Positions 9,046-60,672 of a stretch of DNA of 64,000 nucleotides are shown piece after piece. The stretch comes from an uncultured Bdellovibrionales bacterium. GTDB taxonomy: Bacteria > Patescibacteriota > Minisyncoccia > Moranbacterales > DUUL01. The position numbers were made by a program, and so were the translations under genes. The DNA is taken from the NCBI GenBank assembly GCA_964346295.1, contig CAYFUG010000004.1, forward strand, positions 532 through 64,531. Direction: 5' to 3'. The notes beneath the pieces are model-generated. The model ran no database searches, had not been told where the DNA came from, and saw nothing but the letters and a program-made list of their open reading frames with translations. Position 1 is the first letter of the stretch. Every line of letters starts with the position of its first letter.

Positions 9046-9074
9046 TTGACATTTTTTTATAAATATGCTATTAT
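9046..9074 (+). promoter_or_regulatory. Module 1 promoter P1 (sigma70 consensus-like)
   Basis: TTGACA (9046-9051), 17-nt spacer, TATTAT (9069-9074) preceded by TGc. Followed by GTCCAGCTGAAATGG, which resembles the conserved start of the other module transcripts. Confidence 0.6.
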
Positions 9075-9127
9075 AGACCGTCCAGCTGAAATGGGGAGCA
9101 AAAACGGGGGCGAGTAGTGACACGATA

Positions 9128-9156
9128 TTGACAAGGTTTCAAAAATATGCTACACT
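9128..9156 (+). promoter_or_regulatory. Module 1 promoter P2
   Basis: TTGACA, 17-nt spacer, TGcTACACT. Followed by GTCAAGCTAAGAAAAGG (9162-9178), almost identical to 28912-28928 and 59154-59170. Confidence 0.7.
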
Positions 9157-9958
9157 GTATCGTCAAGCTAAGAAAAGGATTCAGGCGAGCACCTTAAAAG
9201 CACTATCATAAATTATTCTTTGAGGAGAGAGTAATCTATAAAAAGAGTTTAACAATTGGACCTTGAGGGCTAAAAAGATTTTTAAATTAGCTCCCTAGAA
9301 AGGTTGTTATTCAAATTAGATTACAAAGCGGATTTATTTCTCTCTCAAAGTTTTTTCATCGTTTTCTCATCGGCAAGAACGATGGGAACCGACAAGAGGT
9401 GGGAATGAATCCGTTTTTTATTGCTTTTGTGGCAAGCCCGATGGAGGAGAGAGTTAAAATCCAAAAGTTTCCGCGGTTACGAAGTCATAACTATTGAATC
9501 GCGAGAAAGTATTGGCCGTAGTTTTTTCTACACCTTCATCGGGCTTCTCGCAAAGTCGAGGAGCGATTCTCAGCGAAGAATCACTGAACCCAATTTAGAG
9601 CGTTTTAACAGCGCTCCTACAAAGAACCTTACAATCAGGAATTTCTAGAATTTATCTAAAAATTCCTAAAACAAATGTTTAAGCTTTGCTTTTGAAAAAC
9701 CTCCCCGCCGCTATTAACGCTTTGGCGGGGTGCTAAGCAAATCTAATTCTCACTCAGCCTTCAAGGCTGGCTCGGATTGATTTGTTGGCAGAGGAGAGAG
9801 GCTCTAGCAGAAAACTAGAGTTCCCGAGAGGAGAGAGCAAGGTCGAATCATGAACATTTCTTTTGTTTTAGCCGGTCTTTTATAAAGACGGGCGGACATC
9901 TGCCGGTAAGAAGTTTCAACGCAAATTTCTTGCTGGTGATGTCTCTCAACGGAGAGAC

Positions 9959-9977
9959 TGTTCTTTGAAAATCTTAG
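9959..9977 (+). promoter_or_regulatory. boxA-like antitermination motif (module 1)
   Basis: TGTTCTTTGAAAATCTTAG. The core TGTTCTTTGAAAA matches the Gram-positive rrn boxA consensus and the copies at 29130, 32104 and 59261. Confidence 0.55.
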
Positions 9978-10017
9978 TTACTGTTTAGTCTATTTTCTCC
10001 TTATTTTTAAGGTGAAA

Positions 10018-10228: not shown

Positions 10229-11209
10229 ATGACCAATTTCGCGAGCAAATTTGACGGCAAGGGGATCCATGTAATCGCAACCGGTTCGGTGGACGGGGTT
10301 TTGACCACCGCGGCATTTTTGCGGGTGATCGGACTCCATGAGGAGAAGGCAGGGGTGGAGTTTACCCAGGCCTTCACGGTTGACAAGCTGAATCCGGCCC
10401 AGTGGCCGGAGGGGCGGCAGGTCGTTTTCGTGGACCTGGCGGTCAACAATCAGAACCCGGAGATGACGGCGGATTTCGTCCGGCGCATTCGGGAAGCGGG
10501 ACATGAGATCGTTGCCGTATGCGACGAGCACGACGCCGACGCCTGGAAGCGGGTGTTGGGGCAGGAGCCCTTTGAGGCCCTGATCGTAAAGCCCCAAAGT
10601 CAGAAAAAGGGCGAGGCCCAGTCCAGCGGCGCCATTTTATTGGAGGCGCTGGGGGACGAGGCCGATGACCACACTCGCGAGCTGTGCGAAGCCGCGAATG
10701 CCGCCGACCAAATGGATTTTTCCACCCATTTTGGCAGTTACGCCAATCGGGCGGTTAAGTCCGCCATGGGAGACAACTCCCGGCGGGTGCATTTGGCTGG
10801 GCACTTTGCTGCCAACCGGGAGCCGGACGAAGTTATCAGCAGCTGGTGCGCCGAGTACGAGGCGATTATCGCCACCCACGAGGAAGTCCTGGGAAACCGG
10901 GAAGACCTGGGAAGCGGGATCGTCCGGATCGACTGCACTGGCAAGAAGGTGGACATGACCACCTTGATGGGCCAGGTCTACGATCTGCCTGAAACGAAGG
11001 CCTGCCTGGTGATCGGGCCGGTGTATAACAAGGCCAAGGGCGGAATCGAGGTTATGGCCTCCTTCGGAACACGGATTGAAGGCTTCGACATTCAGGCCGC
11101 GATTCAGTCCGAAGGTGTTTCGGCCGGCGGCTTTGCCTCCAAGGCGAATGTCGATCTGGAAAACGAAAAGGCGGCCATTGAGGCCGTCAGAAAAGCGCTT
11201 AACGGCTAG
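10229..11209 (+). CDS. GC-rich cargo protein 1a (326 aa), weak DHH-phosphoesterase-like motifs; function unknown
   Basis: Start chosen at the ATG after GGAGGGAGAAGGAGAGG (the track ORF starts upstream at 10175). GC3-rich codons. Motifs HVIATGSVDG, VVFVDLAV and VAVCDEHDAD. Confidence 0.8.
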   Translation: MTNFASKFDGKGIHVIATGSVDGVLTTAAFLRVIGLHEEKAGVEFTQAFTVDKLNPAQWPEGRQVVFVDLAVNNQNPEMTADFVRRIREAGHEIVAVCDEHDADAWKRVLGQEPFEALIVKPQSQKKGEAQSSGAILLEALGDEADDHTRELCEAANAADQMDFSTHFGSYANRAVKSAMGDNSRRVHLAGHFAANREPDEVISSWCAEYEAIIATHEEVLGNREDLGSGIVRIDCTGKKVDMTTLMGQVYDLPETKACLVIGPVYNKAKGGIEVMASFGTRIEGFDIQAAIQSEGVSAGGFASKANVDLENEKAAIEAVRKALNG

Positions 11210-11685
11210 ACAGTAGCCCCGTTCGTAACTCTCCTCTCTGCTATTTTTATAGTAGAGCAGCGACGAGTGCGTTCGGGGCCTAGCCAAAGATTTTCGTGTG
11301 GTTCAGGGAAAGGAGTTTGTCGGCAACATTCGACAGCTCCTTCCTTCTAAGCTCGGCAACTGAAAGTTTTCAGCTGGTGGTTTTAGAAGGGAATAATGTT
11401 TCCCTAGAGAGTGTATCTCTAAGATATGCTCTAGTTCTTTGACAAGTCCTATTTATACTAGACTCTAAGCTCTGGAGGTTTGATTCTCAAGCTTTTCCCA
11501 TTCCTTAATTTCCTTAAATTCCTAGCTTTACCATCACTGCCTGAGAGCGCAAATACGAATATCCGTTGAAGTAGCGGAAAGTTGTCTAAAATTTGTGCTT
11601 GCAAGTGGTGATGGTAAAAACCCTGGCCGGAATGTTTCCGGTGGGGGTTGGAAGTAATTTTTGAAAAAAGGAAAAAGGAGAAGTC

Positions 11686-12459
11686 ATGGAAAACAATTCC
11701 AAAGAGATGGCGAAGGTTGTGGCTGAGGGATTAGTCGGATTTTTGTCTGGCACTCTTATACTGTTTATTATGGCAAGGATTGCTAGTCCAGGGCCTTCAG
11801 TGTTCCTTGGAATAGCTACAAACCTCCTGTTCTTCATGGGCAGGATTAACTGGATTGGGGGGTGGGAGAAAAAAATACTTTTCATTTTCACTCCAATTAT
11901 CCTCTGGATGGCTCTTATAGGAGCCTGGGGGTTGGGATTATTTCAAATGCCCGACCCAATCAGGCCACCCGTAATCGAAGAGGGGCCGGAGGTGGAGGCC
12001 GTTGAGCTTGATGCGGAAACTTTTATTCCCCGAGTTGAGCGAGAAGAGGGGAAGTTAAGAGTTTCCCTGCATCGACTTAGGCCGTCTACAGAGAAACTCT
12101 TTTTTGCCGTTCAAGAGAACGGCTATTTCTTTCTCGAGTTTAATTTTGGGGGAGGCCGTCTTGCTAAAATAGAGCGCAGAGCCTTCGCCTCCAGCGAAAA
12201 CCCCAGGGAAAGATGGGATTACAGGCTGGAGGGAGGGGCAAGCTCTTTGCTCGAATGGCTTCAGGAAGAGAGAGTTGCTCTTGGAGACCGCGACATGGAA
12301 GATTTCGAAAAATTCATGGAGTGCTTCGGTTTCCAGGGCGAAATCGCCAGGGCGTTTTTCTTGGCCTGCCAGTTTGGAATGGACTGGCCGGAAAAATATT
12401 CACTCGAGACCCAGTTGGCTCGAGAGCTTTTCCGGGAATTAATTTCCGGGGAGCTGTAA
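11686..12459 (+). CDS. Cargo protein 1b: N-terminal membrane segments plus soluble domain, unknown function
   Basis: AAGGAG lies 6 nt upstream of the ATG. Two or three hydrophobic helices at the N-terminus. Intermediate GC. Confidence 0.75.
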   Translation: MENNSKEMAKVVAEGLVGFLSGTLILFIMARIASPGPSVFLGIATNLLFFMGRINWIGGWEKKILFIFTPIILWMALIGAWGLGLFQMPDPIRPPVIEEGPEVEAVELDAETFIPRVEREEGKLRVSLHRLRPSTEKLFFAVQENGYFFLEFNFGGGRLAKIERRAFASSENPRERWDYRLEGGASSLLEWLQEERVALGDRDMEDFEKFMECFGFQGEIARAFFLACQFGMDWPEKYSLETQLARELFRELISGEL

Positions 12460-12758
12460 AAATAGGACTACTAAAGAATAGGATGGGGCGCGCGTTGGAT
12501 CGTCAACCGCGCCTCCCCTATCATCCGGTGAGACCGGATCTGATGAGGTTTTCTGAATAACATTTCAGAGTCAAAGCCGAAATAGGGATTGTTTCTTTGT
12601 AATGTTTTTAGTGGTAAAAGTTAGCCTTTTGTGGGCTGTAGTGTCAAATTCAAAAACCTCTCTCCTCCTCTATTGGTTATAAATACTAGCTATTTAGTCA
12701 CTAGAGTTGAATTTGATGCTCAGCCCAAAGGAGGCTAAGTAAATAAAAAGTAAAAACA

Positions 12759-25342: not shown

Positions 25343-28009
25343 GTGGAGAGACTTGTTGTCGATAGAAGTGAAGAGAAGAGAAACGGACCGGAAAGAAATC
25401 CGGGGTTTTTTCAGTTAGCTGCTTATCCAAAAGAAGATTGGGATTTGTTAAGGGCTGTGAATAAGGTGTTGTCGAAAGATAGTAGTCGAGTTTATGGTTT
25501 GCAGAGGGCTTTATTGGATTATCCCGAACTAGGGAACGAAGAGACAAAGGAGGTAATTTTAGAAAAGATGGAAGAAGAACTTTTAAGCATTTATTCTGAT
25601 GATTTAAGACTGGAAAATGGAATAAACTCGATAAAAGATGCTTTTGAGGGAATAAGGGGGATTTATTTAGGGAAAATAGAGACAGAGAAGGTTGTGATCG
25701 AGCGAGTCAACCAGCTTTACCCAGCGGAGTTGGAAGCCTTTGAGGATTTATTGGGCGACTTTATAGTTTATAAAAAAGTTTTACCTAAAGATGTTATTCA
25801 GGCAATTTACAGAAATAGGCTAGAGAAAATTGGAAATGTAAATCTTAATAATCTTTTTAGTTATGGAGATGTAGGCTTAGAAAAAGAGTGTTTAGGGGTT
25901 AATGAAAGAATTTTTGAAGCTCTAGAGGAGCTAGCCTTGTTTTCTGATATTTCCGAAGGTCAGAAAGCGGAACTTTTTCAGTCAGTGGCAAGGGGGTTAT
26001 TTGGAAGGGAAAAAAAGTTTTTTGTAGACCCAGAAAAGGCTTTGAGATTTGTAAGAGTCACTTTTCAAAGTCCAGAGACCAAGCGCTATGCCAAGCCACT
26101 TTTCATGAATTATTGGTGGGAGTGGGAGAATGCTATTGAAAAAATGCAGTCAGAAATTGATTTTGAAGATCAGAGCAAGGAGAATATTAGGAAAATAGCA
26201 GAGTTGGCGGAAATTTACGGGGCAGTTTACGGAGAATTGATAAAGAGGGGAATCGAACCTAATAATGATGGGGCAGTTTACATGTTGAATTTTATTAACC
26301 AGGCGGGAGGAGTAGACGATTTTTACCTTAACTTAAAGGTTAAGCAAGCCGTTTTTCTTATTCAGGCTGATGCTTGCCTTTATTATGAGGAAGGCGAGGA
26401 TTGGCAAAAGGAAGGAAGGGCGCAGTTGATTTATAGTGCGGCTCAAACTTTGGGAACTGATCTGCAGCTTAGTGGCGAGGAGCTGCAGCAATTTTTAACT
26501 GATATAAAAGGTTTTTTTGGGCAAAAATTAACTGCCGAAATTGAACCTCTTGTTAAGGGGCAGGTGGCAGCTCCGGGAGTAGAAGGGCATTTTGATGATG
26601 ATTTTGATCTGGTGCTACTGGAGGAGGAGAGAGGCAATGAAGGTGATAGGCTGAAGTTTAGCGAATTTATTAAGTTGAATTACTACGATGTTATTGAAGA
26701 GGGCGATTTTCTGGATTTGATGTTTATGCAAAATTTATTCATCAAGAAGCGAATTTCCCAGGAGTTAGGCGTGGCTTTGCATAACTTAGAGTTGAGAGCT
26801 CAGAATCAGTTTTTAAACTTCATTAAAAATGCCTCCCAGGAGAGAGTGAGACAAGTGGCAGAATTCGTAAAAAATCCAGCAGAAGAAGAGCAGCGCTTAA
26901 ACCGCCTGAGAGTCTTTCTTTCCTTGGAAGAGGGCCATTTTTCAGGAGATCAGCTATTGGACTTGCCTTCCAGGATTGATGCTGACCAAGCGCAGCAAGT
27001 TTTTGACCAGTATGGGAGACTGGTTCAAGACGCTTTTTCGGAGCAGTCGACCCTTCAAGAAGTGCTAAAGAATCCGGAGGATTTGGCCAAAATTGATCAA
27101 GAAAAAATCACTCAAAATTTGCTCTTCCGAGGCCAAAAAATCCTTCAAAGGCTAATTGAGTCTAGCGAGCCAGAGAGAGAGGCAGAAAGTGTTTTATCCA
27201 GCCTTTTAGCACAAAAATGGCAAATTCAACTAGCGGGAGCAGTTTTTAGGGAAGGGATCGAGGCTGGGATGAGTTTAGATGATTTAGAGGGTGGCAGAAT
27301 TGAGGTTTTAACCGTCCAAGACTTAATTCAAAAACCAGAATTGGTGGCTAAAATGAGGGATATTTATTCTAATAATTTCTCCAAAAAACCTGATTTGCAA
27401 GGAGCGGTTTTGCAAGGATTTGATCAAAAAATGACAGAAGGAGGCGTTAATTCGGAGTTTGCTTTGGCCTTTGTGGGCGAAGAATTGGTGGCTTTTAGCC
27501 GCAGTGATCATGTAGACGAAAAAACTCGCTATTTTGCTTCTCTAAACTCTTCTTATGGCGGTGCCAAGTTTGGAGAAGCTCTGAGGAGGAAAAGAGAGGC
27601 TCAGGTGGGAGAAAATTTTGATATTCGGGCTCATAGTGAGCCAGAAAGTGCCATGAGTACGCTGTATATTGGCCCAGAGGGAGGATTTATAGCCGATGGG
27701 GTAGAATTTAATTATCACAACACCGAGGCTAATTTATTCAGTATTACTAGACAAAAAACCCCGCCCAGTTACTATGCTTGGAGTAAGCCTCGAGAAGAGC
27801 TAGTCAAAGAGGCGAAAGAACTTGCGGATAGTGAGATAAGTAGCATTTCTCTAGAAAAGGGTAAGCCTCTGGTTTTAAGCCTCCAGGGGCTAGAAAATAC
27901 ACTAGTGGCACTAAAAACCCTACTCAATGAGCAGGGCGGCCAGTTGACCAATTATTGGTTTCAGGGCGGAAGATATTTTTTAGCTATAGAAAACCCTAAA
28001 TCAAGCTAA
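25343..28009 (+). CDS. Large hypothetical protein (up to 888 aa)
   Basis: Long ORF with a GTG track start; the first ATG is at 25568. No motif recognised. Confidence 0.7.
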   Translation: MERLVVDRSEEKRNGPERNPGFFQLAAYPKEDWDLLRAVNKVLSKDSSRVYGLQRALLDYPELGNEETKEVILEKMEEELLSIYSDDLRLENGINSIKDAFEGIRGIYLGKIETEKVVIERVNQLYPAELEAFEDLLGDFIVYKKVLPKDVIQAIYRNRLEKIGNVNLNNLFSYGDVGLEKECLGVNERIFEALEELALFSDISEGQKAELFQSVARGLFGREKKFFVDPEKALRFVRVTFQSPETKRYAKPLFMNYWWEWENAIEKMQSEIDFEDQSKENIRKIAELAEIYGAVYGELIKRGIEPNNDGAVYMLNFINQAGGVDDFYLNLKVKQAVFLIQADACLYYEEGEDWQKEGRAQLIYSAAQTLGTDLQLSGEELQQFLTDIKGFFGQKLTAEIEPLVKGQVAAPGVEGHFDDDFDLVLLEEERGNEGDRLKFSEFIKLNYYDVIEEGDFLDLMFMQNLFIKKRISQELGVALHNLELRAQNQFLNFIKNASQERVRQVAEFVKNPAEEEQRLNRLRVFLSLEEGHFSGDQLLDLPSRIDADQAQQVFDQYGRLVQDAFSEQSTLQEVLKNPEDLAKIDQEKITQNLLFRGQKILQRLIESSEPEREAESVLSSLLAQKWQIQLAGAVFREGIEAGMSLDDLEGGRIEVLTVQDLIQKPELVAKMRDIYSNNFSKKPDLQGAVLQGFDQKMTEGGVNSEFALAFVGEELVAFSRSDHVDEKTRYFASLNSSYGGAKFGEALRRKREAQVGENFDIRAHSEPESAMSTLYIGPEGGFIADGVEFNYHNTEANLFSITRQKTPPSYYAWSKPREELVKEAKELADSEISSISLEKGKPLVLSLQGLENTLVALKTLLNEQGGQLTNYWFQGGRYFLAIENPKSS

Positions 28010-28762
28010 TTTTCGGGAATAATCCCAGTGAAATTCGAACAGGGATTTGTGCATTTGGTAAATATTGGGATCTTGGATTAGCATAGCGATTTTGTGTTCT
28101 TCTGAAAGGGAGATGTAAATGACTTTTCCTTCGTAAATTTGCATTACAGAACCCGAGAAGGGGTATTTTTCTTGATCAATAAGCTTAATTTCTGTAATAT
28201 CTCGCAGATAATTTTGCAAGTAATTTTTGGCAAAGGCAGAGTCCAGGACCAGAACCTTTTTGTTAAGGTTAAGCTTGGATCTTTTTTTCATGTAGCACTG
28301 ATTGATTTTTTCGGTGTATTTGATAACAGCCTCCAGGTCGGCATAAGTGTAAATAATTTCTTGACTGGTGAGAGTGTCTTCCAGGGCCTCTTGAATGCCT
28401 TCTAGTCCCTCAAAATAGCGGACGTCAGGTTTCTGAGAAACTAAATTAAATTCTGATGTCAGTGCATCTAGATTGGCCGCTAGGTTTTTATGAGTTTTTT
28501 CTAGTTGGGAAGATTGATCGCGGAGTAATTCTTCTAATTGATTAGGGTGTTGAGGATAAAAATGAGTCAATTTTCCCTTTTTTTTGCTAATTACCAGGCT
28601 TTTTTCTTCTAAAGATTCTAAAACATTGTAAACCACCCCCTTTTGGAGGGTGGTTTTTTTAATGATTTCGCTGGCAGGAACTGCTCCAGAGCGAAGCAGG
28701 AATTCGTAAATAGTGGCTTCATTAGGGGTCAGTCCAACTTGAGTAAGGATGTCTTGGTACAT
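28001..28762 (-). CDS. TrmB-family transcriptional regulator (paralog 1)
   Basis: N-terminal wHTH GLTPNEATIYEFLLRSGAVPASEIIKKTTLQKGVVYNVLESLEEKSLV. Divergent from the module 2 promoter. Confidence 0.8.
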   Translation of the reverse strand: MYQDILTQVGLTPNEATIYEFLLRSGAVPASEIIKKTTLQKGVVYNVLESLEEKSLVISKKKGKLTHFYPQHPNQLEELLRDQSSQLEKTHKNLAANLDALTSEFNLVSQKPDVRYFEGLEGIQEALEDTLTSQEIIYTYADLEAVIKYTEKINQCYMKKRSKLNLNKKVLVLDSAFAKNYLQNYLRDITEIKLIDQEKYPFSGSVMQIYEGKVIYISLSEEHKIAMLIQDPNIYQMHKSLFEFHWDYSRKLA

Positions 28763-28906: not shown

Positions 28907-29129
28907 GCCTTGTCAAGCTAAGAAAAGGGTAAAACTCCGAAGCTTGAAGAACTGAAAGGTTCTAGCCAAATAAGAATAGTTGGCTCTTAGTACATTATAT
29001 CGAGAATAACCACACAACACAAACCACAGGAAAGTTTCTTGCAAGGCTTTTCTAGAGGTGTTTTTTGTGTTGTGGAAACATTCTCTAGCAAGAGCCCTGC
29101 AAAAAACTCTCCTATCACGGGGAGTTTTT

Positions 29130-29154
29130 TGTTCTTTGAAAACTCAGAAATCAG
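29130..29154 (+). promoter_or_regulatory. boxA-like antitermination motif (module 2, leader copy)
   Basis: TGTTCTTTGAAAACTCAGAAATCAG. Preceded by a terminator-like hairpin at 29101-29130. Confidence 0.6.
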
Positions 29155-29172
29155 TAAAGTGGTTTTCTCCTA

Positions 29173-29335: not shown

Positions 29336-29785
29336 ATGAAGAAGAATTTCAAACTCGTTCCCGGATCCAAAGGTGCTCGCCGCTCCTTCGCCGTTACTTG
29401 TGGCCTGCAAGAGGGCTACGAAGACGGAACCCTTCACACTTTCCAGGAGGCCGTTGAGGTTGCCTTGGAATGGATGAGGGGGCGGGCCGCCGCCGGTGAG
29501 CAGTACTTGACTGGGACCTTCGTCCAGGGTGAGGTGGTGTTTGCCTGGCCCGAAGGCCCTGGCAAGGCCGGTGGCGGTCACGAGGCGACGGTGATTTACC
29601 AGGGCGAGGTCAGCCCGATCTACAACGCGGGCATGACCGATGAAGAGGCCGTCGAGATCCTCAATGACCTGGCGGCCCATCTGGGGACCGCTCTGGGCCA
29701 GACCCGGGTCTATGTCGCCTTGTGCGACCAGATCTGGATTCTCCAGGCGGAAGAGACGGAAACCCCCACCGGGGAGACCGTCTAG
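29336..29785 (+). CDS. GC-rich cargo protein 2a (149 aa), unknown function
   Basis: AAAGGAGAAAGACC-ATG. GC3-rich. Antisense shadow ORFs are present. Confidence 0.75.
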   Translation: MKKNFKLVPGSKGARRSFAVTCGLQEGYEDGTLHTFQEAVEVALEWMRGRAAAGEQYLTGTFVQGEVVFAWPEGPGKAGGGHEATVIYQGEVSPIYNAGMTDEEAVEILNDLAAHLGTALGQTRVYVALCDQIWILQAEETETPTGETV

Positions 29786-30072
29786 CGGCCGTTTTTCTGT
29801 CCCCCTTCAATTTGCTTTTGGCATTTAGGAGGGGGCAGCGCTGATTTCTGAGTAAGAGGGTTCAAGGAAGGCGGATTCACATTGTGCGTCCGCCTCCTTT
29901 TCTCAAATCTCAAGTTTAATTGAGGTTTGAGATGAAGGATTGCACCTTGAAAAATTTTCCCTATTTCTCCTTTCAATTGCCTTTTTTCACTTAGTGAAAA
30001 CAAATCCAACTTCGTTGATTGAAGTGAGGCAATTGACGATTTTCAACTGAAAAAAGGGAGAGGAGAAGGGGC

Positions 30073-30513
30073 ATGAAAATTCGAGTCAGGGATCCCAAAG
30101 AGGCGGCCGCCATTACCGGTGGCTGCACCTTTGAACCGGCTATCGGTTGGTGGACCTATACCGACCAGCCGGAAGAGCACGGAAGGCTGGGGCGGCTGTT
30201 TGAGGGGGAGCGGGATGCTTTATATATCCCCACACTCCAGAAAAATGGTCAGCCGGTGGCGGAAGAGGCCATTGCCCGCTTTAAGGTGCGAGCCAAGGAG
30301 TTGGGTTTTGGTGAAATCTCCGGAGCCTCCGGTATGTGGATTTTGTCCGACACGGGGGAGGCCCAGGTCGAGTACATCTGGATCTGTTGGGCTTCCCAAG
30401 TTTCGGATGAGACGCGGTCTCAGATGGCCGCGTTGGCAGAGGAAATCAAAGCCGCCACTAACCAGGACTGCGTGGCCTGGGAAAACGGCGGCCAGCTATT
30501 TTTCACGGGATAA
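30073..30513 (+). CDS. GC-rich cargo protein 2b (146 aa), unknown function
   Basis: GGGAGAGGAGAAGGGGC-ATG. Confidence 0.75.
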   Translation: MKIRVRDPKEAAAITGGCTFEPAIGWWTYTDQPEEHGRLGRLFEGERDALYIPTLQKNGQPVAEEAIARFKVRAKELGFGEISGASGMWILSDTGEAQVEYIWICWASQVSDETRSQMAALAEEIKAATNQDCVAWENGGQLFFTG

Positions 30514-30526
30514 GGAGGAGACACTT

Positions 30527-31306
30527 ATGAAACGGATTTTTGTTGTCCCTATCAACGATGGGGAGGCGGTAGAGATTAGGAATCTCCTACAGGATGGCGG
30601 TGAAGTGGTTGTGGAAAGCGTCCTCCGTTGGGGAGCCCGATGGGAGAAGCTGGAACCGGAGGTGGTGGCGGAGATCGAAAGGCTTCGCTCCCTTAATCCG
30701 GGAGTTCAGATCTACGGCGTGGAGCTGGCCGGCCCCAATCAGTGGGGGGCTCGCAACATCGACCACCACAAGTACCAGGATGAGGATCGGAGTAATTCCA
30801 AGTCCTCCCTGGAGCAAGTGGCGGAGTTGTTGGGCGTCCAGCTGACCCGGCACCAATTTTTGGTTTCGGAGAATGACAAGGGTTGGATCCCGGCGCTAAT
30901 AGCGGCCGGAGCCAGTCCCGACGAGATCGAACTGGTGCGGGCGCAGGATCGCCAGGCCCAGGGGGTTACCCCTGACGACGAAGCCCAGGCTCTTCGGGAT
31001 ATCGAGGCGGCCCAGTGGCAAGGTCGGAAGGTCTGGCTCCAGTGTCTCAAGGGGGCCACCTCGGCCCACACTGACCGGCTCTTTGGTCAGTTTGACGAAG
31101 CCCTGACGGTGGATGGGGTCAACGGAAAGTGGATCTATTTTGGTCCGCGATCCGAAGATTTCTTCGCCCTCACCGAAGGGGGCACCGAAGGGATACGCTG
31201 GAAAAGCCCTCGACCAGGGGGGTACTCCGGGGCGGAAAAGCCCCAGGAGGAGACCCAGGAAGCAATCCGGAATTTTTTTGGGAGTAATTCCCTTACCTCT
31301 TTTTAG
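30527..31306 (+). CDS. GC-rich cargo protein 2c (259 aa), contains NIDHH motif; unknown function
   Basis: Start taken at the ATG after TAAGGAGGAGACACTT, 14 nt after the 2b stop. The track ORF 30119-31306 has an implausible N-terminal extension that overlaps 2b. Confidence 0.75.
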   Translation: MKRIFVVPINDGEAVEIRNLLQDGGEVVVESVLRWGARWEKLEPEVVAEIERLRSLNPGVQIYGVELAGPNQWGARNIDHHKYQDEDRSNSKSSLEQVAELLGVQLTRHQFLVSENDKGWIPALIAAGASPDEIELVRAQDRQAQGVTPDDEAQALRDIEAAQWQGRKVWLQCLKGATSAHTDRLFGQFDEALTVDGVNGKWIYFGPRSEDFFALTEGGTEGIRWKSPRPGGYSGAEKPQEETQEAIRNFFGSNSLTSF

Positions 31307-31457
31307 CTAAGACGCACTAAGGAGAAGGACAAAATCAGCGTCGGGTTCAGATGGGCTGGCGAGAACCTCGTTAGCCCATCCTTTCCTAGTTCAGCACTAA
31401 AGTGGTGGTGGGCTAAGAAGGGATTAACGAAAAATCACCAAAAAAGGAGGCCCCAAA

Positions 31458-32003
31458 GTGTCTTTAACAAAAGAGCAATTCTCCAGATTAGCGAAGGTAG
31501 CGCTCCAGGTGGCAAAAGAGCGGGGCCAGAGCTTTTACGGGTGGGTTAATCCGCCTCAAATAGAGAGTGGAAAATTGACCCATGACTCCGGAAAAGGACC
31601 CCAGAAGATTTCTCCGGAAGAATCCCTGGCGATTTATAAGAGGAAGCTGGACGGGGTCTATGGGGAGAGATTCATTACCTCTTTGGGCACAATAGCTGCT
31701 TTGATAGCCAATGGCTATTCGGTGCGGCTGGTGCAGTTTTACAAGGAGGTAGGCCTGCCTTTTGACGCGGAGGGTTGGCTAGTGGTGATAATCGAAACCA
31801 TGCCAATTTTCCATGTTTCGCCGGGGGATCTGCGCCTGGAGCAGGTGGCGGATCTGGTTGAGGTGCTAGATGACAATCAAGCGCCCGATGTCTGCCACAA
31901 GGGCACCGACAAGCCGGGAGAGTTTGCGGCTCTTTTGCAGGGCTCTCTTTCTCCGGAGTTGGATTTGGTCAAGATTGCCCAGGAAAACAGTGGCAATTTT
32001 TGA
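31458..32003 (+). CDS. GC-rich cargo protein 2d (181 aa), unknown function
   Basis: AAAAAGGAGGCCCCAAA-GTG start. Confidence 0.7.
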   Translation: MSLTKEQFSRLAKVALQVAKERGQSFYGWVNPPQIESGKLTHDSGKGPQKISPEESLAIYKRKLDGVYGERFITSLGTIAALIANGYSVRLVQFYKEVGLPFDAEGWLVVIIETMPIFHVSPGDLRLEQVADLVEVLDDNQAPDVCHKGTDKPGEFAALLQGSLSPELDLVKIAQENSGNF

Positions 32004-32037: not shown

Positions 32038-32084
32038 GGATCAGGTGTCATTGTGCATCTGATCCGGAATTCTGAGCTTAGCTC
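32038..32084 (+). promoter_or_regulatory. Conserved trailer element: hairpin plus CCGGAATTCTGAGCTT
   Basis: GGATCAGGTG...CATCTGATCC hairpin, then CCGGAATTCTGAGCTTAGCTC. Homologous to 60573-60616. Partly complementary to the transcript 5' end at 28914-28924. Confidence 0.5.
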
Positions 32085-32103
32085 TATTAAGAGGTAGGTT
32101 CAG

Positions 32104-32128
32104 CGTTCTTTAAAAACTCAGAAATCAG
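32104..32128 (+). promoter_or_regulatory. boxA-like motif (module 2, internal spacer copy)
   Basis: CGTTCTTTAAAAACTCAGAAATCAG. Confidence 0.55.
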
Positions 32129-32269
32129 GAAAATCCAACTTTCTATCTTTTCTCTTTGTCTTCTAAAAGTTGTTGGTTACCCGAGAGAATTTAATCTAGT
32201 TAATGAACTGAATTAGCCAGTTAAGTTTTTTTGGGCAACCAACAACCAAGGAAAGAGAAGGAGGAAGAC

Positions 32270-32518
32270 ATGAGATACCAAGGAGCGAGAGAATACAAGG
32301 GCCAGAGGGTGGAAATCCAGCTGCGGGCTGGGGGCAATAATCCCGGAAACGCCTCGGTAACGCTGGTTATCAAAATGGATGGCCAGGAGGTTTTTCGGAG
32401 AAGTGCCGGCCGAGACGGAATGGGCCAGGTGGAAGCCCTGGCCGTGGCTGAAGTGGCCAAGGTCCAAGAGTTGGGCGAAGAAATATATATCGTCCAGTTC
32501 AATGCCGAAGCTATCTAG
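32270..32518 (+). CDS. GC-rich cargo protein 2e (82 aa), unknown function
   Basis: GAAGGAGGAAGAC-ATG. The track ORF starts at an upstream TTG. Confidence 0.65.
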   Translation: MRYQGAREYKGQRVEIQLRAGGNNPGNASVTLVIKMDGQEVFRRSAGRDGMGQVEALAVAEVAKVQELGEEIYIVQFNAEAI

Positions 32519-32703
32519 CCCTTACCTTAGAATTTTTTTGATTTCTAGGCCCTCTCCATCAGGCCTCCTGCGAAGTTAGCAGGTTTTAAAAATTTGGATG
32601 GTAGTCCGAGCGGCGGAAATGACTCAAAACTATCCGCAAAATTAGCCCTGACAATCAGGGCCGGCCGAGGCAAGCGCAATGCCGCTTTAGCCTAAGAGGC
32701 CAC

Positions 32704-32836
32704 CAAAAGGCCCGAAAGAGTCTGGCCAACGCGCTAAATCTTTCGGAGGGACGAACTTGTTGAACACAACATTTTCGTCCCCTCTACTAGCAACTTAATT
32801 TGAGACTTGATCTTTTATTGAGTTGCTTGAGAGAAT
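32704..32836 (+). repeat. 133-bp direct repeat, copy 1 (structured element flanking cargo gene 2f)
   Basis: 131/133 identical to 34003-34135. Contains GGCCCGAAAGAGTCTGGCC and GAGGGACGAA...TTCGTCCCCTC hairpins. Confidence 0.9.
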
Positions 32837-32852
32837 CTATTTTGAAAGGCGA

Positions 32853-32864
32853 GTTCTTTGAAAT
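32853..32864 (+). promoter_or_regulatory. Short boxA-core-like string
   Basis: GTTCTTTGAAAT. Only the core is conserved. Confidence 0.35.
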
Positions 32865-32924
32865 ATATCCAAAGCTTCATTGTAATCTTTGGGTACTTCA
32901 ACCAAACCAGAAAAGGGGGATGCC

Positions 32925-33971
32925 ATGGGTAAATTTCAGGAAATCACACTGGAATTATTGTTGGAAAATGAAGTTTTGAGGAAGTATCTTCTCAAGGCAA
33001 GAATTGGTCCAGCTAAAAAAGGCGACGGTGCTTTTGTGGGGACTTATGATATTGCCCCGAAGGAGTTTCGGAGTTTTGGAATTGTTTTGCCCAGGGGCGG
33101 GATGATTATTCCAGGGGCAGATCCTGTCAAGTTAAAGGAAATGGTCAAGGAGCCTGAGCGCCGGCGTGAGGCGGAGGACTTGGCAAATCGTCGTGCTGTT
33201 GAAAAAGATTATCTCAATCAGGTGAAAGAGATAATTGCTGAAGCTGGCCTCACGGATATTGAAGTGGTGGAAGAAGACGGAGTGGACTTCCATAGTATCG
33301 GCGCCACCAGCTGGCACAAGAGCTTTTTGGTAAGAGAAGGAGAGAAAATCTTCAGTCTTCACAGCGAAGAGGAGCCGTATCGTGGCTTAGATGACGATGG
33401 TTCGTACGAGCCGTGGAGGACGGAGTTTACTCCGTTGGAAGAGGTGAAATCCTTCCTTGAAGAGGAGGCGCGTCTTGTTGGTCCGAGAAAAATGTTTGCT
33501 GATCGGATCAGGCGGCTTATTGATATAAGCCACAATGTTGGTCAGCAAGGGCCAGATGAAACTGGCTGGGATCGCCCTCGAGTGGAATTATTTTTGTACG
33601 ATGACTATAAAAAAGGCAGGGACTGGGGTTTTTTCGGTCATCGTTGTCAGGGTATCTCTTCGGCCCACAGGATTTACTATCGAAAAAAACTCTATGAGAT
33701 TACCGAAGAAGGCATTTCTCGCCTTGAGTATGAAATCGGAGAAAGGGAGGAGGCGCTAGAAGCAAGACGAGCGATGCTCAAAAGACTCTTCGAAGAGAAG
33801 GGCAGAGTTTTTGAGGAACTCAAAGAAGAGAAAGATTGCTATGCCGGAAAGTCACTGGCAACCGGCAAGGCAAAGTACGATGAGTGGACTGAAACGCGCT
33901 ACTTTCTCGGCGACACAGAAGTTACCGAGGAAGAGCGTGATTGGCTGAAGGGCTTACCTAAGGATAATTAG
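32925..33971 (+). CDS. Cargo protein 2f (348 aa), Glu/Arg-rich, unknown function
   Basis: AAAAGGGGGATGCC-ATG. The track start at 32889 is a TTG. Confidence 0.75.
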   Translation: MGKFQEITLELLLENEVLRKYLLKARIGPAKKGDGAFVGTYDIAPKEFRSFGIVLPRGGMIIPGADPVKLKEMVKEPERRREAEDLANRRAVEKDYLNQVKEIIAEAGLTDIEVVEEDGVDFHSIGATSWHKSFLVREGEKIFSLHSEEEPYRGLDDDGSYEPWRTEFTPLEEVKSFLEEEARLVGPRKMFADRIRRLIDISHNVGQQGPDETGWDRPRVELFLYDDYKKGRDWGFFGHRCQGISSAHRIYYRKKLYEITEEGISRLEYEIGEREEALEARRAMLKRLFEEKGRVFEELKEEKDCYAGKSLATGKAKYDEWTETRYFLGDTEVTEEERDWLKGLPKDN

Positions 33972-58051: not shown

Positions 58052-58837
58052 TTAAGCTGGCAAAGTTTTCCAAAGTTGCTCAAATTGGGTGCGTTGGAGA
58101 GCGTAGATTTGAGGATCTTCGATAATGATGGAAATTAACCCGGAGGACCCGATTGCCTGGTAGGAGATTTTATTGTGATAAATTTGAATGGAAGCGCTGA
58201 AGTTAAGGGCGCTTTTTTTAATGAAACGCACTTGAGTGATGGCCTGGTAATTAGCGGGAGCAGTTCGATATTCTTCGATTATTCCGGGTTCATCAAGATC
58301 GATAATCCTTTTTTGGAGCCCCAAACGGGCTCTTTTTTGAGTGTAGCGAGCGTTGATCTTCTCATTGTTTTTGGCTAATTTCGGATCAGTGGTTCTAAAA
58401 ATAGCAGCAGAATCGATTAAAGTGAGAATTTCCGTGTCGCTGCGCAAAGTGTCCTCCAGCACTTTCTCTAGACCTTCGGAGCCCTCTAAAAAGCGAATTC
58501 CTGGTCGATTGAGGCCCAAATTGTATAAAGAAGCTAAGTTAGGCGCCATCTCTAAGAAGGCGCTTTTTTGTTGCTTAAATTCTTGCTCTTTTTGATCGAG
58601 GATTTTTTGGATTTGAGCCGGGTGTTGAGCGGAAAAACGGGCTACTTTGCCTTTTTTATCAAGCCTAAAGACTAGTTCCAGGTTCTCTAGCTCAGCCAGA
58701 ATTTTATAGGCGGCTTCTCTGGGGCGGTTGGTTTTTTGGGCAATTTCTCGGGCTCGGGTCGGTCCGTTTTGGTAGAGGAATTCCAAGATTTGGGCTTGGG
58801 AGGGGGTGAGGCCGATGCTTTGGAGAAGTTCCAGCAT
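58052..58837 (-). CDS. TrmB-family transcriptional regulator (paralog 3)
   Basis: GLTPSQAQILEFLYQNGPTRAREIAQKTNRPREAAYKILAELENLELV. Divergent from the module 3 promoter. Confidence 0.8.
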   Translation of the reverse strand: MLELLQSIGLTPSQAQILEFLYQNGPTRAREIAQKTNRPREAAYKILAELENLELVFRLDKKGKVARFSAQHPAQIQKILDQKEQEFKQQKSAFLEMAPNLASLYNLGLNRPGIRFLEGSEGLEKVLEDTLRSDTEILTLIDSAAIFRTTDPKLAKNNEKINARYTQKRARLGLQKRIIDLDEPGIIEEYRTAPANYQAITQVRFIKKSALNFSASIQIYHNKISYQAIGSSGLISIIIEDPQIYALQRTQFEQLWKTLPA

Positions 58838-59119: not shown

Positions 59120-59148
59120 TTGACAAATATTAATTATTATGCTACAAT
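59120..59148 (+). promoter_or_regulatory. Module 3 promoter (consensus sigma70, extended -10)
   Basis: TTGACA, 17-nt spacer, TGcTACAAT. A/T-rich upstream. Followed by GTCAAGCTCAGAAAAGG (59154-59170). Confidence 0.75.
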
Positions 59149-59260
59149 GCTCTGTCAAGCTCAGAAAAGGTTCAGATTCGTGGGTTTTGATTGTTGGAAT
59201 AATTTTGAGATCCGGAAAAAGGCTTAAAAAGCTTTTCTCGGGCTCTCAAAGCAGAGCCTA

Positions 59261-59285
59261 GGTTCTTTGAAAACTTAGAAATCAG
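59261..59285 (+). promoter_or_regulatory. boxA-like antitermination motif (module 3)
   Basis: GGTTCTTTGAAAACTTAGAAATCAG. Confidence 0.6.
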
Positions 59286-59324
59286 TTACTTCGAGATTCT
59301 TACTTGGAAATTGATAAAGAGGGT

Positions 59325-60554: not shown

Positions 60555-60572
60555 TTTCTAGTGGTTCTTTTC

Positions 60573-60616
60573 GGATCAGGCTCGCAATGCGCGCTTGGTC
60601 CGGAATTCTGAGCTTG
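60573..60616 (+). promoter_or_regulatory. Conserved trailer element: hairpin plus CCGGAATTCTGAGCTTG
   Basis: GGATCAGGC...GCTTGGTCC hairpin. TTCTGAGCTTG (60606-60616) is the exact reverse complement of CAAGCTCAGAA at the transcript 5' end (59156-59166). Confidence 0.55.
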
Positions 60617-60672
60617 TCTGGAGCAATTTGATTGCTTTAGGCAAGTTGAGAATTCTTGAGTGATATTTTTTC

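What the first reader, a model, noticed from the sequence alone, without database searches (positions are those of the whole stretch)
32038..32128. Conserved hairpin-CCGGAATTCTGAGCTT trailer with structure-preserving changes, directly followed by an internal boxA
The segments 32038-32084 and 60573-60616 share a hairpin whose loop and several stem positions differ while pairing is kept. The stems are GGATCAGGTG/CATCTGATCC versus GGATCAGGC/GCTTGGTCC, with U-A to U-G and G-C to G-U changes. Both are followed by an identical CCGGAATTCTGAGCTT. In module 2 this trailer is followed within 20 nt by a boxA-like copy, as in a 16S-23S spacer. In module 3 it is followed by the terminator. Module 2 therefore looks like two fused units and module 3 like the minimal unit.
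Basis: seen in the sequence. Interest (0 to 1): 0.65.

Follow-up and report, generated by a model that had tools for sequence, protein, structure and literature searches.

The report
rRNA-operon-style leader-trailer clamps around genes
The conserved hairpin plus CCGGAATTCTGAGCTT most likely forms the downstream half of an RNA clamp that pairs with the very start of the same transcript, so that a tiny symbiotic-type (Patescibacteria) bacterium packages protein-coding genes, including a freshly captured piece of a CRISPR gene, the way bacteria normally package ribosomal RNA.

Summary
An identical 16-mer sits at 32064-32079 and 60600-60615, each after a hairpin that keeps its pairing. A diverged third copy at 11307-11357 was missed.

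It pairs 11/11 in module 3 and 9/10 in module 2. In module 1, each of two tandem promoters has its own nested partner, with compensatory changes.

A second helix class joins the bases just 3' of each boxA to the bases at or just after the stop codon, in five of six boxA units, using three unrelated sequences.

The modules therefore copy the rRNA-operon layout of promoter(s), boxB-boxA, leader-trailer helices and spacer boxA. They enclose ORFs instead of rRNA:
- a DHH-fold phosphodiesterase;
- an NrN homolog;
- the N-terminal two-thirds of Csx30, 92% nt-identical to a gene beside gRAMP in a GC-rich contig from a consecutively numbered JGI sample.

Orthologous operons in other Patescibacteria carry hammerhead ribozymes before boxA in their spacers.

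Pairing, processing and antitermination are inferred, not shown. There are only three or four copies, and competing local hairpins exist. I rate this a new variant of a known kind.

The parts
32038..32065 (+). Module 2 trailer hairpin (the finding)
   Evidence: 10-bp stem, (present in the MFE)
32064..32079 (+). Module 2 conserved 16-mer; 32070-32079 UUCUGAGCUU is the 3' strand of the class-1 (outer) leader-trailer helix
28878..28906 (+). Module 2 promoter, TTGACA-17-TACAAT with TG extension
28915..28924 (+). Module 2 5' box AAGCUAAGAA, starting 9 nt after the -10 box; 5' strand of the class-1 helix (9/10 pairs, one A x G)
29099..29142 (+). Module 2 leader boxB-like hairpin (terminator-like, 29099-29132) and boxA GUUCUUUGAAAA (29131-29142)
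29142..29155 (+). Class-2 helix 5' strand directly after boxA (boxC-like position)
   Evidence: 14 bp with 29840-29853; rank 1 of 3197 windows; 0/500 shuffles
29840..29853 (+). Class-2 helix 3' strand after orfA
29866..29897 (+). Hairpin after orfA, a weak paralog of the trailer hairpin; followed by UCCUUUUCU, complementary to leader 28921-28929
32082..32116 (+). Internal boxB-like mini-hairpin (32082-32093) and internal boxA GUUCUUUAAAAA (32105-32116)
32120..32134 (+). Class-2 5' strand of the orfE unit
   Evidence: 15 bp with 32532-32546 (20/500 shuffles)
32532..32546 (+). Class-2 3' strand, 14 nt after the orfE stop
59120..59148 (+). Module 3 promoter, TTGACA-17-TACAAT
59156..59166 (+). Module 3 5' box CAAGCUCAGAA, 5' strand of the class-1 helix
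   Evidence: 11/11 with 60606-60616; longest ungapped helix found in an unbiased scan; rank 3 of 3197 by energy
59240..59273 (+). Module 3 boxB-like hairpin (59240-59259) and boxA (59262-59273)
59275..59287 (+). Module 3 class-2 5' strand
   Evidence: 13 bp with 60549-60561, present in the MFE
60549..60561 (+). Module 3 class-2 3' strand, overlapping the stop codon 60552-60554
60573..60601 (+). Module 3 trailer hairpin
60600..60616 (+). Module 3 16-mer; 60606-60616 is the class-1 3' strand
60631..60656 (+). Competing local arm: pairs with the trailer (60602-60627) to give a ~25-bp local hairpin; resembles a degenerate copy of the 5' box
   Evidence: ddG 9.3 kcal/mol in favour of the local form once it is transcribed
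60673..60707 (+). Module 3 intrinsic terminator
9046..9156 (+). Module 1 tandem promoters P1 (9046-9074) and P2 (9128-9156)
9082..9091 (+). P1 5' box CCAGCUGAAA
   Evidence: 10/10 with 11368-11377; longest ungapped helix in an unbiased scan; present in the MFE
9162..9174 (+). P2 5' box GUCAAGCUAAGAA
   Evidence: 11/13 with 11345-11357
9941..9990 (+). Module 1 boxB hairpin (9941-9958), boxA (9960-9971) and class-2 5' strand (9977-9990)
11204..11217 (+). Module 1 class-2 3' strand, overlapping the stop codon 11207-11209
   Evidence: 14 bp, 1/500 shuffles
11307..11377 (+). Module 1 trailer: hairpin 11307-11344, P2 partner 11345-11357, P1 partner 11368-11377
11408..11454 (+). Module 1 internal boxB hairpin (11408-11432), boxA GUUCUUUGACAA (11434-11445) and class-2 5' strand AGUCCUAUUU (11445-11454)
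12460..12469 (+). Class-2 3' strand AAAUAGGACU, immediately after the stop of ORF 11686-12459
   Evidence: 4/500 shuffles
12516..12602 (+). Candidate type III hammerhead with a long stem II (12516-12587), followed by the boxA-like GUUUCUUUGUAA (12591-12602)
   Evidence: Only full-architecture match in the window; shuffles average 0.04; not recognised by Rfam
10229..11209 (+). Module 1 ORF1, DHH/DHHA1 phosphodiesterase fold
   Evidence: AF2 pLDDT 96.3; Foldseek PggH 7d62 E 4e-10; also GdpP, NrnA, RecJ
11686..12459 (+). Module 1 ORF2, unknown
29336..32003 (+). Module 2 cargo: orfA 29336-29785, orfB 30073-30513, orfC 30527-31306 (NrN homolog), orfD 31458-32003
   Evidence: DHH_CorA 3e-31; PDB NrN 9lq9 1.4e-17
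32270..33971 (+). orfE 32270-32518; third boxA-like site 32853-32864; orfF 32925-33971, flanked by 133-nt direct repeats
59421..60554 (+). Module 3 cargo: N-terminal ~2/3 of Csx30
   Evidence: NCBIfam CAS_csx30 4.4e-45, profile 2-347/560; 92% nt identity to L001 over 59434-60537 only
28001..28762 (-). Divergent TrmB-family regulator upstream of module 2
58052..58837 (-). Divergent TrmB-family regulator upstream of module 3 (36% identical paralog)

Best explanation
The hairpin plus CCGGAAUUCUGAGCUU is the 3' closing element of an RNA architecture copied from ribosomal RNA operons.

Each module is transcribed from a strong sigma-70 promoter. Its first bases (CAAGCUNAGAA) later pair with the UUCUNAGCUU(G) of the trailer. 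This forms an outer leader-trailer helix that closes the primary unit, with the conserved hairpin sitting immediately 5' of the 3' strand.

Inside, each boxB-boxA site is followed at once by a strand in the boxC position. That strand pairs with the bases at or just after the stop codon of the enclosed ORF, forming the inner helix.

BoxA presumably recruits NusB/NusE-type antitermination. This would carry RNA polymerase through 0.25-1.1 kb of untranslated, terminator-studded leader and spacer. Where another unit follows, a fresh boxA sits just after the trailer, as in a 16S-23S spacer.

The helices most likely act as processing sites (RNase III-type) and end-protecting clamps, which separate and stabilise the units.

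Shown here: the complementarity, its positional conservation, the compensatory differences between copies, and thermodynamic plausibility.

Inferred: the transcription start sites, the actual pairing in vivo, Nus binding, any cleavage, and the effect on stability or translation.
For: 1. Position of the 5' box. It starts 8 nt after the -10 hexamer at all four promoters.

2. Class-1 partners. In an unbiased scan of everything downstream, the longest ungapped helix for the module 3 box and for the module 1 P1 box is exactly the trailer site: 11/11 at 60606-60616 and 10/10 at 11368-11377. Modules 2 and 1-P2 pair 9/10 and 11/13.

3. Covariation in class 1. In my hand-made alignment of the four pairs, 88.6% of cells pair against 16-48% when slid, and 3 pairs carry changes on both sides. 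P1 and P2 have nested partners in the order expected for RNA helices.

4. Class-2 helices exist in 5 of 6 boxA units, with three unrelated sequences:
- CUNAGAAAUCAG family;
- GUUACUGUUUAGUC / GGCUAGACAGUAGC;
- AGUCCUAUUU / AAAUAGGACU.
Shuffle tests give 0, 1, 4, 20 and 32 of 500. The module 2 helix ranks 1 of 3197 windows.

5. Trailer order is conserved in modules 1 and 3: class-2 3' strand, then hairpin, then class-1 3' strand.

6. Folding. Folding module 3 up to 60618 gives an MFE that contains both helices and the hairpin. The module 1 P1 fold contains its class-1 helix.

7. Hairpin covariation.

8. BoxA. It keeps G2, C5, U6-U8 of the E. coli / Aquifex boxA (PMC3177189). It occurs only in the modules. 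Terminator-like hairpins lie inside the units.

9. Precedent. [quoted passage not shown]

10. Relatives. Orthologous TrmB-linked operons place hammerhead ribozymes just before boxA in their spacers. So processing upstream of each boxA is a conserved theme. The window has one hammerhead-plus-boxA-like pair of its own.
Against: - Only three modules (four promoters) exist, and modules 2 and 3 are paralogs, so independent events are few. No further copies were found in public data.
- The outer helix is short (10-13 bp) and imperfect in two of four cases. By energy it ranks only in the top 1.5-5.6% of windows for modules 1 and 2.
- Once downstream sequence is included, local alternatives are more stable. 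In module 3 a 25-bp local hairpin wins by 9.3 kcal/mol. In module 2 pairing with the internal boxB/boxA region wins by 17 kcal/mol.
- The class-1 alignment was assembled by hand.
- The 5' box could be conserved for promoter or operator reasons instead. TTGACA at -35 and TGTCAA at +1 form an inverted repeat, and a TrmB regulator is encoded next door.
- Transcription starts are unmapped.
- No RNase III gene lies in the window.
- The organism's own rRNA leader could not be examined.
- The orfF unit has no class-2 helix.
Confidence: 0.55

Rival explanations
1. The hairpin is a 3'-exonuclease barrier and the single-stranded, AU-rich CCGGAAUUCUGAGCUU is a recognition or cleavage site for an endonuclease such as RNase Y or J. 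The element would define the 3' end of the upstream mRNA segment and release the boxA-headed downstream unit, with no long-range pairing.
For: The hairpin lies 19-35 nt after the stop codon and has no U-tract. The 16-mer is perfectly conserved while its surroundings drift. It sits where relatives have a self-cleaving hammerhead, just before boxA. A relative's locus encodes RNase Y.
Against: It does not explain why the motif is the exact reverse complement of the transcript's first bases. It does not explain why module 1 P1, with a different 5' box, has its own exact 10-nt complement 11 nt after the P2 partner.
Confidence: 0.15
2. The trailer is a switch arm. It pairs locally with downstream sequence, and this controls whether the next boxA is exposed or whether the terminator is read. 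In module 3 the partner is 60631-60656. In module 2 it is 32095-32109 and 32116-32125, which include the start of the internal boxA.
For: The local structures are the MFE once downstream sequence is present. In module 2 GGAAU pairs with GUUCU of boxA.
Against: The local partners differ in sequence and position between modules 2 and 3, and module 1 has no convincing one. The conserved part is the strand complementary to the leader. This reading is compatible with the main explanation as a second conformation, not an exclusive alternative.
Confidence: 0.1
3. The complementary boxes act in DNA. They would be inverted repeats marking cassette boundaries for a recombinase (integron or MITE-like), or paired operators for the neighbouring TrmB-family regulator.
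For: Cargo differs between modules. In module 3 foreign DNA fills exactly the ORF body. The TrmB-plus-module-3 block sits between mreC and mreD. The 5' box overlaps the promoter region next to a regulator gene.
Against: - The island between mreC and mreD (about 58019-61521) is much larger than the repeat-bounded segment (59156-60616).
- The promoters outside the left repeat are conserved too.
- No recombinase lies nearby.
- Two different nested repeat pairs in module 1, and three unrelated class-2 pairs placed at boxA and the stop codon, are not what one protein-binding site predicts.
Confidence: 0.07
4. The element is a remnant of the duplication that produced modules 2 and 3 and has no function of its own.
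For: Only two identical copies exist. Paralogous promoters and boxA regions show common descent.
Against: The 16-mer is 100% identical while the leaders are about 65% identical and the other flanks cannot be aligned. The hairpin changed while keeping its pairs. A diverged third copy keeps the same architecture.
Confidence: 0.05
5. Hairpin plus 16-mer is a new small self-cleaving ribozyme that replaced the hammerhead found at the same spacer position in related operons.
For: Positional equivalence with hammerheads that lie directly upstream of boxA in L096, L095, L086, L084 and at window 12516-12602. Spacers near known ribozymes are a recognised hunting ground for new ones (my own knowledge).
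Against: Only about 16 conserved nt plus a variable hairpin. The module 1 copy changes CCGGAA to CCUUCC. There is no tertiary or pseudoknot signal. No Rfam ribozyme family matches even at E up to 1.
Confidence: 0.04

Closest known systems
Pre-rRNA leader-trailer helices with the rrn antitermination signals boxB-boxA-boxC (E. coli rrn; PMC10250234)
   Same: Strong (in module 1 tandem) promoters. A hairpin then boxA in the leader. The strand right after boxA pairs with sequence just past the enclosed gene. A second boxB-boxA sits in the spacer before the next unit. Terminator-like hairpins lie inside the unit.
   Different: The helices enclose protein-coding ORFs with Shine-Dalgarno sites, not rRNA. 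They are 10-15 bp rather than 25-40 bp. There are two nested classes, one using the extreme 5' end. The inner 3' strand overlaps or abuts the stop codon. The 5' strand follows boxA immediately rather than after 18-19 nt.
BoxA/Nus-dependent antitermination of non-rRNA transcripts (CRISPR arrays; PMC7665894)
   Same: BoxA is placed in long untranslated RNA, where Rho or terminators would otherwise stop transcription.
   Different: Here there are several boxA copies per operon, each coupled to a bracketing helix, and the cargo is translated ORFs.
Intercistronic processing elements of polycistronic mRNAs (phage T7/lambda RNase III hairpins, from my own knowledge; hammerhead ribozymes in the related Patescibacteria operons found here)
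   Same: The position between cistrons and directly upstream of the next unit's boxA. The presumed role is to separate and stabilise segments.
   Different: T7-type sites are local hairpins, and hammerheads carry a catalytic core. The trailer has neither and relies, on this reading, on long-range pairing.
Type III CRISPR accessory genes: Csx30 (III-E; PMC9825189) and NrN (III-B CorA systems; PMC10600005)
   Same: The module 3 ORF scores as Csx30 and module 2 orfC as NrN.
   Different: No Cas effector, Csx29, CorA or CRISPR array is in the window. The Csx30 copy is truncated at profile position 347 of 560. SbCsx30 is cut at L407|D408, which would lie beyond that truncation if numbering corresponds roughly; I did not map the loop onto this homolog.

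Membership tests
rrn-type Nus antitermination site (boxB-boxA-boxC) | BoxA sequence with the nucleotides contacted by NusB/NusE (G2, C5, U6, U7, U8) | tested here: met
   xGUUCUUUGAAAA at 9960, 29131 and 59262, with variants at 11434 and 32105. Compared with the E. coli numbering in PMC3177189.
rrn-type Nus antitermination site (boxB-boxA-boxC) | Stem-loop (boxB) immediately upstream of boxA | tested here: met
   9941-9958, 11408-11432, 29099-29132, 32082-32093 and 59240-59259
rrn-type Nus antitermination site (boxB-boxA-boxC) | Same boxA as in the organism's own rRNA leader | not tested
   No rRNA gene lies in the window or in any fetched locus.
rrn-type Nus antitermination site (boxB-boxA-boxC) | NusB/NusE binding and read-through of terminators | not testable with these tools
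   Needs biochemistry or reporters.
Pre-rRNA-type leader-trailer helix | Sequence just 3' of boxA is complementary to sequence just 3' of the enclosed gene | tested here: met
   5 of 6 boxA units
Pre-rRNA-type leader-trailer helix | Covariation supports the helix | tested here: inconclusive
   Three unrelated class-2 sequences, and 3 double changes in class 1. However there are only 3-5 instances and the class-1 alignment was hand-made.
Pre-rRNA-type leader-trailer helix | Long helix (25-40 bp) enclosing a stable RNA | tested here: not met
   The helices are 10-15 bp and enclose ORFs with SD and start codons.
Pre-rRNA-type leader-trailer helix | RNase III cleavage | not testable with these tools
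   No rnc gene in the window; no RNA data.
Intrinsic terminator | GC-rich hairpin followed by a U-tract | tested here: not met
   Hairpins 32038-32065 and 60573-60601 are followed by GGAAUUCUGAGC and are not called by the scan. The real module 3 terminator is 60673-60707.
Known self-cleaving ribozymes / any Rfam family | Match to a covariance model | tested here: not met
   No hit at the trailers at E up to 1.
Mobile-element terminal repeats / integron attC | Repeats at the ends of the inserted DNA, with a recombinase nearby | tested here: not met
   The island between mreC and mreD is larger than the repeat-bounded segment, and the neighbours are TrmB-family genes.
Csx30 (cargo of module 3) | NCBIfam equivalog score above cutoff; full length about 560 aa; encoded beside gRAMP/Csx29 | tested here: inconclusive
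   Score 154.5 against cutoff 125, but only profile positions 2-347 are present and no gRAMP/Csx29 is in the window. The full-length homolog P0002 lies beside gRAMP.

The most novel reading that the evidence does not exclude
Patescibacteria of this lineage carry a reusable, rRNA-operon-like expression chassis: TrmB-controlled strong promoter, repeated boxA, nested leader-trailer clamps, hammerheads. Foreign genes are slotted into this chassis. The cargo seen here is two DHH-type phosphodiesterases, one of them an NrN homolog (the enzyme that degrades the type III CRISPR signal SAM-AMP), plus a cleavage-site-less Csx30 fragment just taken from a co-occurring type III-E carrier. On this reading the cargo is a counter-defence arsenal of a parasitic cell, and the clamped RNAs are an unusually stable or translationally gated mRNA form.
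Probability: 0.12. Interest if true: 0.85.

Novelty: new variant of a known kind. Interest (0 to 1): 0.6.

Why it matters
BoxA antitermination and leader-trailer helices are textbook features of ribosomal RNA operons. Finding the whole layout, nested and repeated, wrapped around protein-coding genes would mean the machinery is used as a general device for making long, structured, processed mRNAs in ultra-small bacteria.

It also gives a concrete, testable RNA model, with defined helices and compensatory mutants, for an uncultivated phylum.

The cargo adds a second point. A 92% identical piece of a CRISPR type III-E gene sits precisely between native translation signals, next to signal-degrading-type enzymes. 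This hints at recent gene capture from a neighbour or host, and possibly at interference with CRISPR signalling.

Tried and rejected
- Extended boxA 24-mer scans of viral and JGI metagenome contigs: 0 hits.
- Trailer 17-mer scan of metagenomes: 53 chance hits, none with the hairpin or boxA.
- gyrA-anchored loci from 80 Patescibacteria genomes: best 70% aa identity, no synteny, no motifs, no rRNA genes.
- Covariance model of hairpin plus trailer: only the three training copies, plus a weak hit at the orfA hairpin.
- nhmmer of the window's leaders and spacers against related operons: nothing.
- Other assemblies carrying module 2 (L090-L092) are 99.95-100% identical, so they give no variation.
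- Rfam at gathering and E-value thresholds: only RNase P, and nothing at the trailers.
- Intrinsic terminator reading of the hairpins: rejected, no U-tract.
- An earlier candidate for the module 1 class-2 helix (9966-9975 / 11287-11296) was dropped in favour of 9977-9990 / 11204-11217. The later pair is stronger and positionally homologous.
- 5'-end/trailer complementarity in related operons L084-L086: not found; those use hammerheads.
- Pfam, PADLOC, NCBIfam and PHROGs on orfA, orfB, orfD, orfE, orfF and ORF 11686-12459: no informative hits.
- Sequence-profile search of PDB for the module 1 ORF family: nothing. Only the fold comparison worked.
Full report
**Context.** The window is about 43% GC and chromosomal. 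It carries RNase P RNA, gyrA, a SecD-PPIase fusion, mreC and mreD. GyrA is at most about 70% identical to Patescibacteria (CPR) MAGs. The source is a 65-kb JGI contig (3300012002, Ga0153774_1000134). The same strain occurs in a microbial-mat metagenome.

Three + strand 'modules' stand out by GC of 50-57%: M1 about 9046-12600, M2 28878-34203, M3 59120-60707.

**The observation.** CCGGAATTCTGAGCTT occurs exactly twice, at 32064-32079 and 60600-60615. Each copy is fused to the 3' arm of a hairpin (32038-32065; 60573-60601) whose 5' arm GGATCAGG is shared. The 3' arm and upper stem differ while pairing is kept.

A diverged third copy in M1 was overlooked: hairpin 11307-11344, then UUCUAAGCUCGGC. 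Over the three copies, 86.7% of stem cells pair against 23-53% in slid controls, and three pairs change on both sides.

BoxA-like GTTCTTTAAAAA begins 25 nt after the M2 trailer. In M3 a terminator follows after 57 nt.

All four promoters have the form TTGACA-17-TAnnnT. M1 has two of them, 82 bp apart. Each is followed, 8 nt after the -10 box, by a conserved box: CAAGCU(A/C)AGAA, or CCAGCUGAAA at M1-P1.

The reverse complement of the M3 box is UUCUGAGCUUG, which is the end of the 16-mer. I scanned everything downstream of each promoter for the longest ungapped helix. The top hits were:
- M3: 59156-59166 with 60606-60616 (11/11);
- M1-P1: 9082-9091 with 11368-11377 (10/10).

M2 pairs 9/10 (one A x G) and M1-P2 pairs 11/13 with 11345-11357. 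In M1 the two partners are nested in the order RNA helices require. P1's different box has its own matching partner.

In the four-row alignment, 88.6% of cells pair against 16-48% when slid, with three double changes. I assembled that alignment by hand.

By duplex energy the M3 pair ranks 3rd of 3197 windows. The M1 and M2 pairs fall only in the top 1.5-5.6%.

**A second helix class.** The bases directly after each boxA pair with the bases at or just after the stop codon of the enclosed ORF.

| Unit | 5' strand | 3' strand | Length / note |
|---|---|---|---|
| M2 orfA | 29142-29155 | 29840-29853 | 14 bp; rank 1 of 3197 |
| M2 orfE | 32120-32134 | 32532-32546 | 15 bp |
| M3 | 59275-59287 | 60549-60561 | 13 bp; overlaps the stop |
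| M1 ORF1 | 9977-9990 | 11204-11217 | 14 bp; overlaps the stop |
| M1 ORF2 | 11445-11454 | 12460-12469 | 10 bp; abuts the stop |

Dinucleotide-shuffle tests give 0, 20, 32, 1 and 4 of 500, in table order. The three sequence families are unrelated, which is helix-level covariation. The sixth boxA-like site (32853, before orfF) has no such helix.

In M1 and M3 the order in the trailer is the same: class-2 3' strand, hairpin, class-1 3' strand. After orfA there is also a hairpin (29866-29897), weakly recognised by a model of the trailer hairpin. It is followed by UCCUUUUCU, which is complementary to leader 28921-28929. The orfA unit therefore looks like a minimal M3-type unit embedded in M2.

**Folding.**
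- M3 leader plus trailer, folded up to 60618, gives an MFE that contains both helices and the hairpin.
- The M1-P1 fold contains its class-1 helix, and the M2 fold contains the 14-bp class-2 helix.
- Adding downstream sequence makes local alternatives more stable. In M3 the trailer pairs with 60631-60656 (about 25 bp, ddG 9.3 kcal/mol). In M2 it pairs with the internal boxB/boxA region (ddG 17).
- The long-range outer helix is therefore plausible co-transcriptionally but is not the only possible state.

**Comparison with what is known.** In E. coli rrn operons the leader carries boxB, boxA and boxC. BoxC is the 5' strand of a 25-40-bp leader-trailer helix that overlaps the RNase III site, and a second boxB-boxA sits in the spacer (PMC10250234).

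The window's boxA keeps G2, C5 and U6-U8 (PMC3177189). It is always preceded by a small hairpin and occurs nowhere else in the 64 kb. Terminator-like hairpins lie inside the units, so antitermination would be needed.

BoxA is already known on non-rRNA transcripts such as CRISPR arrays (PMC7665894).

The differences are:
- the enclosed genes are ORFs with strong SD sites;
- the helices are 10-15 bp;
- there are two nested classes;
- the inner 3' strand sits on the stop codon.

I found no description of this arrangement for Patescibacteria, but the search was limited.

**Relatives.** Homologs of orfD and orfC lie in other Patescibacteria contigs, in operons with the same divergent TrmB-family gene, a TTGACA-17-TATACT promoter, 0.5-1.3-kb leaders and long spacers.

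Those spacers carry type III hammerhead candidates with complete cores, in L096 directly followed by a boxA-like site. All are below the Rfam gathering score of 48.5:

| Locus | Bits | E-value |
|---|---|---|
| L096 | 43.8 | 2e-6 |
| L096 (second) | 36.1 | 3e-4 |
| L095 | 41.9 | 7e-6 |
| L086 | 32.2 | 0.003 |
| L084 | 30.0 | 0.014 |

The window has one full-architecture hammerhead candidate, with a long stem II, at 12516-12587. It is followed by GUUUCUUUGUAA. It is the only such match in the window, and shuffles average 0.04. Rfam does not call it.

An RNA-processing element just upstream of each boxA is therefore a shared theme. In the window the hairpin-trailer occupies that slot twice.

**Cargo.**
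- The M3 ORF is Csx30 by NCBIfam (4.4e-45, profile positions 2-347 of 560).
- It has only three non-self homologs in 5.8 billion proteins. These are 572-576 aa in the two contigs long enough to show full genes, where each lies immediately upstream of a gene that in L001 scores as gRAMP/Cas7-11 (PADLOC E=0). One also has a CHAT protein upstream.
- DNA identity to L001 is 92% over 59434-60537 only, which is the ORF body between the native ATG+4 codons and the native tail.
- L001 has 55.7% GC. It comes from JGI sample 3300012009 (Ga0153773), numbered consecutively with the source sample (Ga0153774).
- SbCsx30 is cleaved at L407|D408 (PMC9825189), beyond the truncation point if numbering corresponds roughly; I did not map the cleavage loop onto this homolog.
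- Branch-specific changes (16 synonymous, 16 nonsynonymous) resemble those of the intact L001 gene (12, 11). There is no GC decay, so the transfer is recent and the ORF is not obviously degenerating.
- orfC is an NrN homolog (PADLOC DHH_CorA 3e-31; PDB NrN 9lq9 1.4e-17).
- M1 ORF1 has a DHH/DHHA1 phosphodiesterase fold (pLDDT 96.3; best match PggH, E 4e-10).
- Whether this amounts to counter-defence, nucleotide scavenging or something else is open.

**Rivals.** I considered five alternatives, all scored lower:
- a stabilising hairpin plus an endonuclease site;
- a local switch controlling boxA exposure;
- DNA-level repeats (cassette boundaries or TrmB operators);
- a neutral duplication remnant;
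- a new ribozyme.

The main reasons for ranking them lower are the exact complement to the transcript start, P1's private partner, and the three unrelated class-2 pairs anchored at boxA and the stop codon.

**Verdict.** The best reading (confidence 0.55) is that the element is the 3' half of an rRNA-operon-style leader-trailer clamp in boxA-controlled, processed, protein-coding units. I rate it a new variant of a known kind. The evidence comes from one genome fragment and no RNA data.

Noticed in passing
window 59421-60554; L001 358-6371; L002 2643-10803: The module 3 ORF is the N-terminal ~2/3 of Csx30. It is 92% nt-identical (59434-60537 only) to a full-length gene next to gRAMP/Cas7-11 in a 55.7% GC contig from a consecutively numbered JGI sample. 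This is recent capture of a CRISPR type III-E accessory gene fragment into native translation signals.
   Followed up: yes
window 30527-31306 and 10229-11209: orfC is an NrN homolog (type III-B CorA-associated DHH phosphodiesterase). Module 1 ORF1 has a confident DHH/DHHA1 phosphodiesterase fold (PggH/GdpP/NrnA-like). No Cas effector or CRISPR array is nearby.
   Followed up: yes
window 12516-12602; L096 6741-6809, 7416-7470; L095 7298-7365; L086 3191-3241; L084 6700-6775: Type III hammerhead candidates lie in the intercistronic spacers of this operon family, often directly followed by a boxA-like site. The window's copy has a long stem II and is missed by Rfam.
   Followed up: partly
window 58019-61521: The TrmB gene, module 3 and a small minus-strand ORF (61047-61298) sit between mreC (57131-58018) and mreD (61522-62046), which are normally adjacent. 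This looks like an inserted island. No target duplication was looked for in detail.
   Followed up: partly
window 9992-10002/10217-10227; 29167-29171/29324-29328; 59296-59301/59412-59417: In all three modules the Shine-Dalgarno region is predicted to pair with a pyrimidine-rich anti-SD shortly after the class-2 strand. The pairing encloses a long GC-rich hairpin domain, which suggests possible translational gating.
   Followed up: partly
window 9222, 9444, 9791, 9828; L084 4043, 4069, 4511; L085 4847, 4994; L095 5922, 6175; L096 5582: GAGGAGAGA recurs in the long leaders of these operons, 4 times in the module 1 leader against about 0.4 expected per strand in the whole window. It is SD-like and its role is unknown.
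   Followed up: partly
window 32704-32836 and 34003-34135: 98% identical 133-nt direct repeats flank orfF (32925-33971). The first is followed by a boxA-like site (32853). L086 has an analogous repeated element at 2274 and 4037, each before a boxA-like site.
   Followed up: no
window 28878-28915, 59120-59157, 9128-9165: The -35 hexamer TTGACA and the +1 region TGTCAA form an inverted repeat spanning the promoter, next to divergent TrmB-family genes. This may be an operator.
   Followed up: no
window 24122-24260, 24975-25079, 44200-44317, 49634-49752, 58927-58962: A family of 45-130-nt intergenic repeats (TTTTGAAAATTT...CACCGTA...CAGTACGGCTC) lies downstream of genes. A second family is at 6079-6147, 34304-34372 and 42263-42331. 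They are REP-like elements of unknown role.
   Followed up: no
window 7573-7638 and 47018-47128: 33-nt tandem repeats lie immediately upstream of, or overlap the starts of, two of the AAA_14/DUF4143 ATPase genes (7623-8957, 47103-48377).
   Followed up: no
L084 3765-3775/4091-4101; L085 4542-4550/4797-4805 and 4558-4570/4975-4987: In two related operons the strand after the boxA-like site pairs with sequence 250-430 nt downstream. The pairing encloses a conserved noncoding leader domain (L084 and L085 leaders are homologous, nhmmer 1e-41), which may be an unannotated structured RNA.
   Followed up: no
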